From the human T2T-CHM13v2.0 reference genome, Homo sapiens: a stretch of DNA of 64,000 bases. A program made the position numbers and the translations under genes. The notes under the pieces are model-generated. The model ran no database searches, was not told the origin of the DNA, and was given only the letters and a program-made list of their open reading frames with translations. Below are positions 38,187-63,786 of the stretch, one piece after another (position 1 is the first letter of the stretch; each line of letters starts with the position of its first letter). The stretch lies in NCBI RefSeq assembly GCF_009914755.1, contig NC_060927.1; one strand, written 5' to 3'.

Positions 38187-38400
38187 GTGAGATAGAACAG
38201 CCAGCTCATGGTGACATGTGACGGTGTTCCGGTTGGCTTCCATAAAATACCTTTGTGTGCGTCTTCGTTCCCGTTCTAGCTTCTTTTCCAAGGACAACTG
38301 GGATGTAGATAAGTTGTCTAAATATTTCATCATGACATCTGATATCATCGAACTGACTTCTACAATATCTGGACGAGCTTCCGCATCAGGAGTGAGGCAC
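38187..38400 (-). CDS. NEK10: NEK10 exon C (214 nt): (R)CLTPDAEARPDIVEV...SLEKKLERERRRTQRYF...ELAVLSH; kinase subdomain XI plus coiled-coil-like segment
   Basis: Acceptor tcttag|G and donor CAC|GTAAGT. CLxPDxxxRP is the subdomain XI motif. Overlaps ORF 38157..38558. Confidence 0.95.
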
Positions 38401-40120: not shown

Positions 40121-40284
40121 TCCACAAACAAACTCAGCGTAACATCTAAAAAGTTTACCTACCCATAACCCAAAATATTTGGCCATAGACTTTTGGATTC
40201 CCAGGAACATTTCCTACCAGAAGTTCCAGGATAGTCTCGTTGCTCTGAAATGACTCCCTGCTTAGGCATTTCAGAGAAATTCTT

Positions 40285-40571
40285 TTTTTTTTTTTTTTTT
40301 GAGACGGAGTCTCGCTCTGTCGCCCAGTCTGGAGTGCAGTGGCGCAGTCTCGGCTAACTGCAAGCTCCGCCTCCCGGGTTCAGGCCATTCTCCTGCCTCA
40401 GCCTCTCCTAGCAGCTGGGACTACAGGCGCCCGCCACCACGCCCGGCTAATTTTTTTGTATTTTTAGTAGAGACGGGGTTTCATCGTGGTCTCAATCTCC
40501 TGACCTTGTGATCCACCCACCTCGGCCTCCCAAAGTGCTGGGATTACAAGGGTGAGTCACCGCGCCCGGCC
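40285..40571 (-). mobile_element. AluY with a 12-bp left-arm deletion (AluYd-type)
   Basis: GAGACCA^CGATGAAACCCC lacks TCCTGGCTAACA. Perfect TSD TCAGAGAAATTCTT at 40271-40284 and 40572-40585. Confidence 0.88.
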
Positions 40572-42138
40572 TCAGAGAAATTCTTAACAGCAACTGAATC
40601 AGAGTCATAATACATGCTAAAGATTGTCTACCAATGATTCTGTAAACAAATAAGCATAAAATCTGGTCCTAAAAAAATTGAGGATATTCTCACCTCATCC
40701 ACTTTGTCCCCACTCCACTCTGAAAGGCCAGATGGAAAGAATTAGAAGGATACCTTATTCAATTACATTCATGTCATGTTTTAAGATACAAAGAATTGAA
40801 AGGGGTGAAAAATATAAAGATCCATTTGTCCTTGGAGCTAGCTGAAAGTATTAACTTTGTTAGTCCTCATGACTGCTTCTGAAGCAAAGCACCAGGCAGC
40901 TTATGCAACCAGGCACAGAGAAAGAAAAATAAGGCAATGATTTTAATAGAATATTTTATGCATAAAAGGAAATGTTCTTCCTTTTTAAAAAGTAAACAGA
41001 CAATATTCTCTTAATAGTACACTAGTAGGTAAAAATAGTAATCCTAGTACCGAGCAGAACAAAAAAATATATTTATTTTCTTCCCCAAACTCCTCAGGGT
41101 TGCTAAGTTATTCTCCCAATTTGAAGGCCTGCTAGGAAAGACAAGTTTCAATAACAAATGTGCTTGTATACCACATGAGCAAACAGGAAAAAGGAAAGAT
41201 GCTGCACATTAGAAATGCAAACTGTGTGAGCTCTACTTGACAAGGATGTGAAAAATAATGAGAAGATAGTAAAATAGAGGAAAGAAGATATATATGATTA
41301 GAAACAATATAATTTTTAGGAATGATTATAATAAACATTTCTGTCAAGAGCTGTCTTCTATTTCAAAGGCTCTATCAAATTACTAAAGATTGGCTGTGAG
41401 CCTGATCTTTTGCTGAGTCATAAATGATCATTAAGAATACTTGCCTTTATGTGTCCCTTGCATTGTTGCTTTAAGAAAATACAAAATTTGAGTTTGTTCC
41501 CTAATTCTTTCAGAACTCAATTTTTTAATACTGAAAATCCAAAGCAAATTAAATATGCAATTGCATATAATTCATGATTGATTTCAGTTTTAAGTCAAAT
41601 TTTCTAAAGATAAAACTTTATTTGGAATGTAAACCCAGACAATGAGGAGTCTTAACTTTAAATGAAAATAAATTTATTACAGAATGCACCCTGCAATCTT
41701 AATTTATTATCAGATATAAAGTTGAATTGTCAGTTCTAACTTATTGTGGCATCTTAGTATTTTGAACCAAAAGCAACCTCAAATTGAGAAGCTCTTTCCC
41801 TCAGCAAAGCCTTCACAGATACTGGTCTGCGAAATGCTGCTTACTATTTGAGAGTTAATGAATGTTCCAGGTCTCAGATTACACGTCCTTTTTTCAGAGA
41901 AACTTTTCGCCAATTCCCAGAGTAAGACAGGTCCTTCTGTAATCTCTCATTGCCCCCTTTACCATTTTTCATCACATTTATCACAATTTGCTTTATAAAC
42001 TTCATTCTGTACATAATACAATATCATTATTAATACTAATAATACCTAATTTTATAGAGTGCCTACCACTTGCTGGGTACTGCGTTAAGTGGGTCAGAAG
42101 CACTATCTTATTTAAGCTTTAAAACAAGCCCATGAAGT

Positions 42139-48584: not shown

Positions 48585-48714
48585 TTTTGTAGCCAAGGAC
48601 AGCATGTTAGTGCTGTAGAAGGGGGGACTCAAAGTCGCCATCTGATAAAGGATGCAGCCTACTGCCCAGACATCAGCCTTCTCCCCATACGGCTCACTCT
48701 TCAGTACCTCGGGG
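48585..48714 (-). CDS. NEK10: NEK10 internal coding exon A (130 nt): (C)PEVLKSEPYGEKADVWAVGCILYQMATLSPPFYSTNMLSLATK; kinase subdomains VIII(end)-X
   Basis: Acceptor cttcag|C at 48715-48716 and donor AAA|GTAAGC at 48583-48584. DVWAVG is the subdomain IX motif. The translation is recognised as NEK10. Phases 2 to 0 match the next exon. Confidence 0.95.
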
Positions 48715-61246: not shown

Positions 61247-61805
61247 CTATTTTCTTTAAAAGCATTACCCTTGAAAACTTCCATAGTTTCGGCTCTTAAC
61301 ACCATCAAAATTAGTCTTAATCTCTGAACACATAAAGATAATCCTTTCTTCTCTCTTTCTGCACAATATAGATTTTCAAAACAGAGGGAAATAAAGCACT
61401 TTATTTAGTTCCAGATTTATTGTGTTCCATTTAGGAATGAACTACTATCTGGGTAACCCATGGGATGCCAACTCTATATGGAGAGAATAAACTATTTTAG
61501 CAATGGACCTGGTGTGGCTGAATGAAATGACACTTCAAAATTGTAGGACTGTGGAAAACAAGATATTTGCTTTGTGCCTTAACTTCCTTTCTTATACAAT
61601 ATGAAAATGACCTGTTCAGTGTGTTATAAGAATTGCCAAATGCAATACATTTTTAAAATATAAGGCATAGAATATCTTTATATTTACTCAGATGAGTTTT
61701 GACTCTTCTTTCCTTGGATGTTGGCAGTTTAAATGAGAGAAAGGCAAAAGGTAAACAAAGCTGAAATAAGGATTGTACTTTATTTTGTTTATCACATTTA
61801 AAGAG

Positions 61806-62199
61806 TGTATGAATCCGTTCTTGCACTACTACAAAGAAATACCTGAGACTAGGTAATTTAGAAAGAAGAGAGGTTTAATTGGCTCACGGTTCTGCAGGCT
61901 GTACAGGAACCATGATGGCATTTGCTTCTTGGGAGGCATCAGGAAGCTTCCAATGATAGCAGAAGGCAAAGGAGGAGCCAGCACGTTTTATGTGGCCAGA
62001 GCAGGAGCAGGAGAGCGAAGGTAGAGGTGCTGCACACTTTAAACAACCAGATCACACGAAAACTCACCATCATGAGAACAGCACCAAGGGAGAAATTCGC
62101 CCCCATAATACAATCACCTCCCACCAGGCTCCACCTCTAACATACGGGATTAAAATTCAACATGAAATTTAGGTGGGGACAAAGATCCAAACCATATCA
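61806..62199 (-). mobile_element. MaLR MST-type solo LTR, co-oriented with NEK10
   Basis: Minus strand starts TGATATGGTTTGGATCTTTGTCCCCACC and ends ...CGGATTCATACA; contains GGTTGTTTAAAGTGTG and CCTGCAGAACC|GTGAGCC. Confidence 0.88.
61888..61913 (-). CDS. NEK10: Putative LTR-derived alternative first coding exon segment of NEK10 (MVPVQPAE(P))
   Basis: gccatcATGG strong Kozak at 61913, then ATG GTT CCT GTA CAG CCT GCA GAA CC|GTGAGC. The phase-2 donor matches the phase-2 acceptor of exon A. Confidence 0.65.
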
Positions 62200-62589
62200 G
62201 AAAGTATACCTTGATTGTACCAACACTAAAGTTTCACTGATTTTAAATTGACATACACATTAATTTAAAATTTTTCTCTACTGTCTCAAATTTATGAAAA
62301 GTATAAACTAACCAGCTTTGTGAATGGGGTCATTGAGAAAGAAAAGAAACAGAAAGAAAAGAACCCCTGCCCAAGAGAAGGGTCCTTAATAGTCAAAGAA
62401 AAGACAAATAATTCTAGACAGTATCATTACAAATTCAATACAGTAAATATAGTTGGATAAATATATATTGAGTACTGCAGTCTAAAAACAAAACACATTA
62501 TCTTCAAGGAATTCATAAAACTTACATAAACTTTTCTATATATCAGGTGTGGCAAATTCTTTGGTGATCTATTGAGAAAACACTTTTAC

Positions 62590-63040
62590 TAGTATATATG
62601 CCCTTGTATAGTCCCTCCATACATTATTTCTGGTTTTGGCCATGTGACTGGCTTTAGCCAATGGAACATTAGCAATTGTGATGCATGCCTGTACATGCAG
62701 GCTATATTTTCAGAACTCTACCTCTTGGAACATTCCCTCTCAGATTCCAACCACGATACTGAAAAAACCAAAGCCCAGTCTAGCCATTTAAAGAGAACAC
62801 ATGGAAGTAAACCAAGAACCCAGCCAATATCCCCAGGTAAGCTCCCAGCCAAAAGCCAGTACCAATATCCTCCTTAAAAGAGATTCCTCCCATTCCAGTT
62901 AAGTTGCCCTAGTTAATGCCTCACGGAGCAGAGATAAGCTGTTATTAATAAGCCCTGTTCAAACTGCAGAATTTGAGCAAATAAATTATTATTATTGTAT
63001 TAAACCAATAAGTTGGGGATAAATGCTATGCAATGATTAT
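62590..63040 (+). mobile_element. Old MaLR LTR (MLT1-type)
   Basis: GGCCATGTGACTGGCTTTAGCCAATGGAAC core; GCAGAATTTGAGCAAATAAAT end. Confidence 0.55.
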
Positions 63041-63410: not shown

Positions 63411-63786
63411 TGTATTCGTCCACTCTCGCATTGCTATAAAGAAATCCCTGAGACTGGGTAATTTATAAAGAAAAAAGTTTTAAGTGGCGCACAGGCTATA
63501 GAAGAGGCATGACTGTGGAGGCCTTAGGGAACTTTGACTCATGGCAGAAGGTAAAGTGGGAGCAGGCATCTTCGCATGGCCAGAGCAGGAGGAAGAGAGA
63601 GAGTAGGGAGGTGTCACACACTTTTAAACAATGAGATCTTGTGAGAACTCTATCACAAAAACAGCACCACCAAAGTGGGACATCCGCCCCCATGACCCAA
63701 TCACCTCCTACCAGGCCCCACCTCAAACACTGGGAATTACAATCCAACATGAGATTTGGGTGGGGACACAAATCCAAATCATGTCA
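63411..63786 (-). mobile_element. MaLR MST/THE1-type solo LTR, preceded by a MER4-group fragment (about 63255-63410)
   Basis: GCTATAAAGAAATCCCTGAGACTGGGTAATTTATAAAG...GAGATTTGGGTGGGGACACAAATCCAAATCATGTCA. Confidence 0.85.

What the first reader, a model, noticed from the sequence alone, without database searches (positions are those of the whole stretch)
61806..62199. Intronic MST LTR encodes a complete alternative start (Kozak ATG plus in-phase donor) for a kinase-dead NEK10 isoform
Seen: on the NEK10 strand the LTR has GGTTGTTTAAAGTG (about 62037-62050, TATA-like), then gccatcATGG (61913) and ATG GTT CCT GTA CAG CCT GCA GAA CC|GTGAGC (donor at 61887). The donor is phase 2, exactly what the exon A acceptor 13.2 kb downstream needs. 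The join gives MVPVQPAEP-PEVLKSEPYGEKADVW..., open through all eight exons. A weak-context out-of-frame ATG at 61921 would be leaky. Known: MaLR (MST/THE1) LTRs often act as promoters and first exons via a donor at this position. Inference: the product starts at the APE-equivalent motif, so it lacks the N-terminal region, N-lobe, catalytic loop and DFG but keeps the C-lobe end, coiled coil and tail. It could act as a scaffold or dominant negative. I recall, unverified, that a short NEK10 isoform starting in this intron is annotated; the LTR origin is the point to check.
Basis: partly seen in the sequence, partly recalled or inferred. Interest (0 to 1): 0.85.

Follow-up and report, generated by a model that had tools for sequence, protein, structure and literature searches.

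The report
Exonised LTR splits NEK10 transcripts
An old retrotransposon LTR inside a NEK10 intron supplies the start codon and splice donor of an already catalogued short, kinase-dead NEK10 isoform, but it looks like a spliced-in exon rather than a promoter, so this is an ordinary case of a known kind.

Summary
The sequence observation holds. A 394-bp solo MaLR-type LTR lies at 62199-61806 (minus strand). It carries gccatcATGG at 61913 and a GT donor at 61887. That donor joins in frame to the exon at 48714.

The predicted product already exists in a database. UniProt "Isoform 7 of NEK10" (427 aa) starts MVPVQPAEP-PEVLK. Gelada and squirrel-monkey gene models start MLPVQPEEP and MLPVHPAEP. The product begins at Pkinase profile position 166 of 263, so it cannot be an active kinase.

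The promoter reading is not supported:
- The annotated exon start 62036 sits directly after an AG, only 7 nt from the start of the TATA-like TTTAAAG.
- An orangutan NEK10 model ends ...ILYSC-VQHLSLHSPAPALAT. That tail is the upstream coding exon spliced into this same LTR exon, so 62036 is a splice acceptor.
- RefSeq also lists a terminal version (61762-62036) and a separate first exon (62526-62679) outside the LTR.
- A 115-sample RAMPAGE atlas lists no minus-strand transposon-derived start site in the LTR.

The ATG-plus-donor module is generic to the family: 12 of 29 sister copies keep it.

Verdict: an exonised LTR, not shown to be a promoter. Interest is low.

The parts
61806..62199 (-). Solo MaLR-type LTR (394 bp), in the same orientation as NEK10. 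It begins TGATATGG and ends ATACA.
   Evidence: 10,583 first-look candidates in the own genome; 39 other scored copies at 77-81% identity, most covering query positions 1-394; median identity 0.806 to 29 copies; the flanks match none of the 29 other loci, so no shared internal element sequence.
61888..62036 (-). The 149-nt exon inside the LTR (RefSeq exon of non-selected NEK10 transcripts).
   Evidence: Hub annotation table. Boundaries read...gtttaaAG|TGTGCAG at the 5' side and GAACC|GTGAGC at the 3' side.
62037..62043 (-). TATA-like TTTAAAG of the LTR. Its last two bases (62038-62037) are the AG of the splice acceptor.
   Evidence: AG at this column in 21 of 29 sister copies; 11 of the 18 bases upstream are pyrimidines, against a median of 9 and a maximum of 10 in the 29 others.
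61988..61990 (-). TAA that ends the reading frame arriving from the upstream coding exon, after the LTR-encoded tail VQHLYLRSPAPALAT.
   Evidence: translation; the upstream exon ends TG|gt; the orangutan model P0124 ends ILYSCVQHLSLHSPAPALAT.
61911..61913 (-). Start codon of the short isoform, gccatcATGG. The +4 G is private to this copy.
   Evidence: at +4 the 29 sister copies have C in 28, T in 1 and G in 0. P0002 starts MVPVQPAEP; the monkey models start ML...
61919..61939 (-). Two out-of-frame upstream ATGs (61939-61937 and 61921-61919) sharing one frame. Their uORF overlaps the main ATG.
   Evidence: the first occurs in 2 of 29 sister copies, the second in 5 of 29.
61886..61887 (-). GT of the LTR's own splice donor (GTGAGC), phase 2.
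   Evidence: GT in 17 of 29 copies and GTGAGC in 13 of 29; loss is mostly by CpG decay to AT.
61762..61887 (-). Extension that makes the terminal-exon version (61762-62036). AATAAA lies at 61786-61781, just outside the LTR. The LTR's own ATTAAA lies at 61879-61874.
   Evidence: Hub annotation table. The annotated exon end lies about 19 nt after the AATAAA.
62526..62679 (-). Alternative first exon outside the LTR. No AG precedes it. It has TATA at -27 to -24, a CA at the start, and the donor TTTAT|gtaagt.
   Evidence: Hub annotation table; positions 62588-62688 are an old low-copy repeat; the exon holds four short uORFs that all close within it.
48585..48714 (-). Exon A, the acceptor partner. 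It encodes PEVLKSEPYGEKADVW..., starting at the PE of the APE motif.
   Evidence: Pkinase E 2.2e-10, profile positions 166-201 of 263. NEK1, NEK2 and NEK7 chains align at their residues about 185-240.

Best explanation
A solo MaLR LTR inserted in the 53.7-kb intron that cuts the NEK10 kinase domain just before the APE motif has become an alternative exon. I do not think it is a promoter.

Its 5' boundary is an AG acceptor made by the LTR's TATA-box remnant. Its 3' boundary is either the LTR's native splice donor or a poly(A) site just past the LTR.

Two outcomes follow:
1. Transcripts coming from the upstream coding exon read 15 LTR codons and stop at TAA 61990-61988. This predicts a protein of about 712 aa, truncated at its C-terminal end and lacking the kinase C-lobe. 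If the donor is used instead, the result is a transcript with a premature stop.
2. Transcripts that begin at a separate intronic first exon (62679-62526) splice into the LTR exon. There the LTR's ATG in a strong Kozak context opens the reading frame. It runs through the phase-2 donor into exon A and yields UniProt isoform 7: 427 aa, with the end of the kinase C-lobe, the coiled-coil region and the tail. This product is kinase-dead.

Shown here: the sequence features, the frames, the database isoform, and acceptor use in an orangutan model.

Inferred: that 62679 is the promoter of the isoform-7 mRNA, and that either protein is actually made.
For: Start codon, donor and frame:
- Searches show the ATG, donor and in-frame join.
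- P0002, named by UniRef 'Isoform 7 of Serine/threonine-protein kinase Nek10, Homo sapiens', is 427 aa and starts MVPVQPAEPPEVLK.
- The gelada model P0020 and the squirrel-monkey model P0083 start MLPVQPEEP and MLPVHPAEP.

Acceptor at 62036:
- An AG lies directly before 62036.
- The upstream exon ends ...ATC CTG TAT TCT TG|gtaagg.
- The human LTR exon in that frame gives VQHLYLRSPAPALAT and a stop. The orangutan model P0124 ends ILYSCVQHLSLHSPAPALAT, 13 of 15 tail residues identical.
- RefSeq's 61762-62036 version ends about 19 nt after an AATAAA, so it is a terminal exon and needs an upstream exon.

Promoter outside the LTR:
- RefSeq exon 62526-62679 has no AG before it and carries a GTAAGT donor.
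- It has TATA at -27 to -24 and CA at the start.

No start site seen in the LTR:
- In Supplementary Data 3 of PMC12963367 (115 RAMPAGE biosamples including two testes), the consecutive chr3 rows are 27194197(-), 27216585(+) and 27367765(+).
- No minus-strand site therefore falls in the LTR, whatever the exact hg38-to-CHM13 offset.
- The same paper reports that MST elements have broad start-site distributions and weak reporter output (passages).
Against: - No expression data could be examined directly. Which upstream exon precedes the LTR exon in the isoform-7 mRNA is inferred from a list of exons, not from transcript rows.
- The orangutan, gelada and squirrel-monkey proteins are gene models. 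They may be projections of human annotation.
- The acceptor is weak by consensus: A at -3, T at +1, and 11 of 18 pyrimidines upstream.
- Franke et al. 2017 (PMC5538554, passages) state that ERVL LTRs carry a promoter, start site, donor and sometimes an AUG, but no acceptor. The family's default use is therefore as promoter plus first exon.
- The RAMPAGE atlas contains no oocyte or early-embryo samples. It also lists no minus-strand site at 62679, which lies in an old repeat and might have been expected to appear.
- The TATA and initiator match at 62679 is a weak motif in AT-rich DNA.
Confidence: 0.6

Rival explanations
1. The LTR's own promoter (TATA-like TTTAAAG at 62043-62037) fires about 25-30 nt downstream. 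The LTR is then promoter, first exon, start codon and donor of the short isoform, as in oocyte and germline LTR-initiated transcripts.
For: - MaLR LTRs are documented to supply a promoter, first exon, donor and even a functional AUG (PMC5538554, abstract and passages).
- The TATA-like motif is retained here and in most sister copies: TTTAAAAG or TTTAAAG in 15 of 29.
- Oocyte and embryo samples are absent from the RAMPAGE atlas I could check.
Against: - The annotated exon starts at 62036, about 20 nt upstream of where a TATA-directed start would fall, and directly after an AG.
- That same boundary is an acceptor in the orangutan model.
- No minus-strand transposon-derived start site lies in the LTR in 115 RAMPAGE biosamples, including testis.
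- NEK10 is absent from the supplementary tables I could search: PMC6102241, 4 files, and PMC5538554, 10 of 11 files. This is a weak negative, because those tables may not list human genes by name.
Confidence: 0.2
2. The LTR exon is essentially non-productive. It acts as a poison or terminal exon that truncates NEK10 messages or sends them to nonsense-mediated decay. 'Isoform 7' is then only the longest ORF called on a partial or low-abundance cDNA and is not made as a protein.
For: - Entered from the coding exon, the frame stops at TAA 61990-61988. With the donor used, that stop lies far upstream of later junctions.
- Two uATGs inside the LTR exon open a uORF that overlaps the main ATG. Four more uATGs lie in exon 62526-62679.
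- The N-terminal peptide differs at 2 of 9 positions in each monkey model, so I see no sign of constraint on it.
- No paper in the library mentions the peptide or the isoform.
Against: - The main ATG has A at -3 and G at +4. The G is private to this copy, present in 0 of 29 sister copies.
- The uATG contexts are weak, so leaky scanning is plausible.
- The ATG, frame and donor are intact in human, gelada and squirrel-monkey models.
- UniProt and RefSeq both carry the isoform or its exon.
Confidence: 0.25

Closest known systems
MaLR LTR co-option as promoter plus first exon with donor and AUG in mammalian oocytes and zygotes (Franke et al. 2017, PMC5538554). [quoted passage not shown]
   Same: - An intronic MaLR LTR in sense orientation.
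- The native donor near the LTR's 3' end is spliced to a host exon.
- An LTR ATG opens an N-terminally truncated host protein.
   Different: - Here the annotated LTR exon is entered through an acceptor inside the LTR, a feature that paper says these LTRs lack.
- No start site in the LTR is documented.
- The same exon also ends a C-terminally truncated isoform.
Retrotransposon-driven, N-terminally truncated Dicer isoform in mouse oocytes (Flemr et al. 2013). I saw it only as an entry in reference lists; the details are recalled.
   Same: An intronic MaLR-class LTR produces a shortened isoform of a multidomain enzyme.
   Different: - In Dicer the LTR is the demonstrated promoter and the product is more active.
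- Here the promoter role is unsupported and the product lacks catalytic residues.
Transposon exonisation giving alternative internal or terminal exons, with premature stop and polyadenylation. This is general, established knowledge recalled by me; no specific paper was read here.
   Same: - A cryptic AG and pyrimidine tract inside a repeat is used as an acceptor.
- The frame hits a stop within the repeat.
- A poly(A) signal follows.
   Different: The same exon also carries an in-phase ATG and donor, so it can both close the upstream half and open the downstream half of the gene.

Membership tests
ERVL-MaLR LTR (MST/THE1 type) | TG...CA termini and a length of about 350-430 bp | tested here: met
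   starts TGATATGG at 62199 and ends ATACA at 61806, 394 bp.
ERVL-MaLR LTR (MST/THE1 type) | Dispersed high-copy family whose copies match over the full length | tested here: met
   10,583 first-look candidates; 39 other scored copies at 77-81% identity, most spanning query positions 1-394.
ERVL-MaLR LTR (MST/THE1 type) | TATA-like box, poly(A) signal, and a splice donor near the 3' end | tested here: met
   TTTAAA(A)G, ATTAAA and GTGAGC sit at conserved columns. The donor position agrees with PMC5538554 (passage).
ERVL-MaLR LTR (MST/THE1 type) | Assignment to the MST subfamily by match to a curated consensus (Dfam or RepeatMasker) | not testable with these tools
No repeat library is available and the hub table gives no family names.
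ERVL-MaLR LTR (MST/THE1 type) | 5-bp target-site duplication | tested here: inconclusive
   the flanks are CTTTC and CTCTT, 3 of 5 identical.
LTR-initiated transcript (LTR as alternative promoter and first exon) | Transcription start inside the LTR, about 25-30 nt downstream of its TATA box | tested here: not met
   The annotated exon start 62036 is 7 nt after the first T of TTTAAAG and follows an AG. No minus-strand transposon-derived start site lies in the LTR in the RAMPAGE atlas. Raw 5'-end data were not available.
LTR-initiated transcript (LTR as alternative promoter and first exon) | LTR donor spliced to a host exon, with an in-frame LTR AUG | tested here: met
   plus the RefSeq exon 61888-62036.
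Exonised transposon (internal or terminal alternative exon) | A splice acceptor inside the element, used from an upstream host exon | tested here: met
   the upstream exon ends TG|gt, and the LTR frame gives the tail seen in the orangutan model P0124. This evidence is a gene model, not reads.
Active protein kinase (Pfam PF00069) | Presence of the N-lobe, catalytic loop and DFG (profile positions before about 166) | tested here: not met
   the isoform's first conserved residues align to profile positions 166-201 of 263. P0002 has nothing upstream except nine LTR-derived residues.

The most novel reading that the evidence does not exclude
One LTR exon acts as a gene splitter. It closes a roughly 712-aa N-terminal NEK10 (armadillo repeats plus a kinase domain cut before APE) and opens the complementary 427/484-aa C-terminal NEK10. 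Both would be made in testis or ciliated cells as regulators of the full-length kinase. The reported 80-kDa NEK10 species (PMC7189645, passages) could be the LTR-terminated form. In addition, the LTR's own promoter might fire in oocytes or embryos, which no data set I could reach covers.
Probability: 0.15. Interest if true: 0.5.

Novelty: new member of a known kind. Interest (0 to 1): 0.25.

Why it matters
NEK10 is a ciliopathy and breast-cancer-locus gene whose smaller protein species are unexplained. If the LTR exon is used appreciably, one primate-specific insertion creates both a C-terminally truncated and an N-terminally truncated kinase-dead product.

That would bear on three practical points:
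- How antibodies and blots are interpreted.
- How variants are numbered.
- Which transcripts a truncating mutation spares.

As it stands, the isoform is already catalogued, and the mechanism (transposon exonisation that donates a start codon) is well known. The main value here is correcting the promoter reading.

Tried and rejected
- **Literature linking NEK10 to repeats.** I searched NEK10 with LTR, transposable element, MaLR (the hits were 'malrotation') and retrotransposon. None gave a paper on this LTR. The one retrotransposon preprint concerns a polymorphic intronic Alu elsewhere (passages).
- **Peptide and accession search.** Searching the peptide, an isoform identifier and one transcript accession found no mention of the peptide.
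- **A wrong recollection.** I had recalled NM_152534 as the short transcript. PMC7229615 uses NM_152534.4 for p.Tyr1134*, which contradicts that. I therefore give no accession for the short form.
- **NEK10 isoform passages.** PMC7189645 and PMC10969439 mention 133- and 80-kDa species without exon structure. The bioRxiv kinesin preprint says nothing on NEK10 isoforms.
- **Supplement searching.** Phrase searches across table cells returned nothing even for a row known to exist, so I searched by number prefixes instead.
- **A 5'/3' LTR pair.** I considered the second LTR at 63786-63411 as the partner LTR of one element and rejected it. It is 71% identical to the exon LTR, less than unrelated copies are (77-83%). 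The part of the intervening DNA I tested, 62500-62800, is not a high-copy internal sequence.
- **Acceptor strengthening.** The pyrimidine count is highest of the 30 copies, but only 11 against a maximum of 10. That is too small a difference to claim adaptation.
- **Not possible here.** I had no repeat consensus library, no primate genomes, and no CAGE, RNA-seq, Ribo-seq or mass-spectrometry data.
- **Coordinate offset.** The hg38-to-CHM13 offset (about +2.1 to +2.4 kb) is my estimate from recalled coordinates and from the position of an Alu. Only statements that do not depend on it are used as evidence.

Full report
**What is there**

On the NEK10 (minus) strand, a 394-bp element runs from TGATATGG at 62199 to ATACA at 61806. 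Searched against the window's own genome, it gave 10,583 first-look candidates. The 39 other scored copies were 77-81% identical, and most covered the whole query. Its flanks match none of the 29 fetched sister loci. I read it as a solo LTR of a high-copy MaLR-type family. The subfamily name 'MST' could not be tested because no repeat library was available.

The details check out:
- gccatcATGG has its A at 61913.
- The frame ATG GTT CCT GTA CAG CCT GCA GAA CC ends at 61888 and is followed by GTGAGC.
- The exon at 48714 begins with the third base of a codon.
- The join reads MVPVQPAEP|PEVLKSEPYGEK and stays open through the seven canonical coding exons in the window.
- The donor coincides with the end of RefSeq exon 61888-62036.

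Two corrections are needed. The TATA-like string lies at 62048-62035. There are also two upstream out-of-frame ATGs, at 61939 and 61921, not one. Both are in weak context and share a frame. They open a uORF of 21 or 15 codons that overlaps the main ATG.

**How special the module is**

I aligned 29 sister copies and compared the homologous columns:

| Feature | Sister copies with it (of 29) |
|---|---|
| ATG | 24 |
| GT donor | 17 |
| ATG + GT + phase 2 + open frame | 12 |
| G at +4 (C in 28, T in 1) | 0 |
| First uATG | 2 |
| AG before the exon start | 21 |

The start-plus-donor module is therefore an inherited family feature. Many losses of the donor are by CpG decay (GT to AT in 9 copies). 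Fitting the host acceptor's phase is about a 1-in-3 event. The pyrimidine tract before the AG is the richest of the 30 copies, but only by 11 of 18 against a maximum of 10.

**The product is already catalogued**

I searched the protein database with the 71-residue exon 38187-38399. It returned 489 proteins at E of 1e-10 or better among 563 candidates. One is P0002, named by UniRef 'Isoform 7 of Serine/threonine-protein kinase Nek10, Homo sapiens'. It is 427 aa and begins MVPVQPAEPPEVLKSEPYGEK.

A gelada model (P0020, 484 aa) begins MLPVQPEEPPEVLK. A squirrel-monkey model (P0083, 484 aa) begins MLPVHPAEPPEVLK. Three things follow:
- The insertion predates the split of Old and New World monkeys.
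- All three lineages keep the ATG, frame and donor.
- The human +4 G (Val for Leu) is derived.

These are gene models and may be projections of human annotation.

Exon A aligns to Pkinase profile positions 166-201 of 263 (E 2.2e-10). It also aligns to residues about 185-240 of NEK1, NEK2 and NEK7 chains. The product therefore lacks the N-lobe, catalytic loop and DFG, so 'kinase-dead' is correct.

**Promoter or exon?**

1. *Position of the exon start.* The annotated start 62036 lies directly after an AG (gtttaaAG|TGTG). It is only 7 nt from the first T of the TATA-like TTTAAAG. A TATA-directed start would fall about 20 nt further downstream.
2. *A terminal-exon version.* RefSeq also lists 61762-62036. 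It ends about 19 nt after an AATAAA (61786-61781). That makes it a terminal exon, which needs an exon before it.
3. *Acceptor use from the coding exon.*
   - I located the upstream coding exon at window 102,458 and above. It ends ...ATC CTG TAT TCT TG|gtaagg.
   - TG plus the T at 62036 gives Cys. The LTR then reads VQHLYLRSPAPALAT and a stop at 61990-61988.
   - A second database search returned 642 proteins at E of 1e-60 or better. Among them is an orangutan model, P0124, of 713 aa. It ends ...GTILYSCVQHLSLHSPAPALAT, the same junction and tail with 13 of 15 residues identical.
   - So 62036 is a splice acceptor in annotated models.
4. *A separate first exon.* RefSeq lists exon 62526-62679, about 490 bp upstream of the LTR. 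No AG precedes it. It has TATA at -27 to -24, CA at its start and a GTAAGT donor. It lies partly in an old low-copy repeat.
5. *No start site recorded in the LTR.*
   - Supplementary Data 3 of a RAMPAGE atlas (PMC12963367) covers 115 biosamples including two testes.
   - It lists peaks linked to annotated or assembled exons (methods passages).
   - The consecutive chr3 rows are 27194197(-), 27216585(+) and 27367765(+).
   - No minus-strand transposon-derived start site therefore lies in the LTR, whatever the exact coordinate offset.
   - The same paper reports broad start-site placement and weak reporter activity for MST compared with THE1 (passage).

Against my reading:
- Franke et al. (PMC5538554, passages) describe MaLR LTRs as promoter plus first-exon platforms with a donor and sometimes an AUG, but no acceptor.
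- The atlas has no oocyte or embryo samples.
- The atlas also lacks a minus-strand site at 62679.
- I saw no reads.

**Mechanism proposed**

The LTR is an exonised element with two fates.
- *Entered from the upstream coding exon,* it adds 15 residues and a stop. With polyadenylation near 61762, this predicts a protein of about 712 aa that lacks the kinase C-lobe. With the donor used, it gives a transcript carrying a premature stop.
- *Entered from the intronic first exon 62679-62526,* its ATG is the first long ORF. It runs through the phase-2 donor into exon A and yields isoform 7.

The leader of that second transcript holds six upstream ATGs. Four close within the first exon. The two in the LTR overlap the main start. 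Translation is therefore probably inefficient and depends on leaky scanning. I put 0.6 on this overall picture, 0.2 on the LTR-promoter model, and 0.25 on the view that the exon is mainly non-productive and isoform 7 is not made.

**Comparison with the known**

The case works like published MaLR co-options that give N-terminally truncated host proteins (PMC5538554). It fails the defining test for an LTR-initiated transcript, because no start site inside the LTR is supported. It does meet the tests for transposon exonisation.

Four NEK10-plus-repeat searches and one peptide and accession search found no paper describing the LTR origin of this isoform. NEK10 was also absent from the searchable supplements of two oocyte LTR papers (one file of the latter was not searched). 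Supplements I could not open may hold relevant rows.

**Verdict**

The one mildly unusual feature is that a single LTR exon can both terminate the upstream half and initiate the downstream half of NEK10.

Noticed in passing
window 63411-63786 (-): A second full-length MaLR-type LTR in the same orientation, 71% identical to the exon LTR. Its ATG is followed by an in-frame TAG, and it has an 8-bp deletion before a weaker GTGCGC donor site. It is not a usable start module.
   Followed up: partly
window 62526-62679 (-), with repeat at 62588-62688: A RefSeq alternative first exon outside the LTR, with TATA at -27 to -24, CA at its start and a GTAAGT donor. It overlaps an old low-copy repeat (34 candidates, 74-93% identity over about 40-100 bp). 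It holds four short uORFs.
   Followed up: partly
window about 62660-62970 (+); hg38 chr3:27216585: The RAMPAGE atlas (PMC12963367, Supplementary Data 3) lists a plus-strand, testis-only transposon-derived start site, antisense to NEK10, next to the alternative first exon. This may be a bidirectional testis promoter. The window position rests on my estimated coordinate offset.
   Followed up: no
window 40283-40577 (-); hg38 chr3:27194197: An AluY-like element in sense orientation with the target-site duplication AGAATTTCTCTGA. The RAMPAGE atlas lists a minus-strand, 'hominids'-category start site at about this place in NCI-H460 cells and testis. It could drive still shorter NEK10 transcripts. 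No RefSeq exon is listed there.
   Followed up: no
proteins P0034 (Talpa), P0038 (Carlito), P0092 (Vulpes), P0086 and P0114: Non-anthropoid NEK10 models also begin at or just before the PEVLK exon with unrelated short N-termini (MQSQES-, MS-, MENIYTADFGLAK-, MLGDKDK-). Internal starts around this intron are therefore predicted without the LTR.
   Followed up: no
window 48602-48714 (-): The RefSeq 'other transcript' exon 48602-48714 is followed by TG rather than GT. It looks like a transcript end rather than an alternative donor.
   Followed up: no
L043 (window about 102458) and protein P0121: Squirrel-monkey isoform X5 (700 aa) ends ILYSWSP at the same exon boundary. This is a different truncation at the same point of the kinase domain, not the LTR tail.
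   Followed up: no
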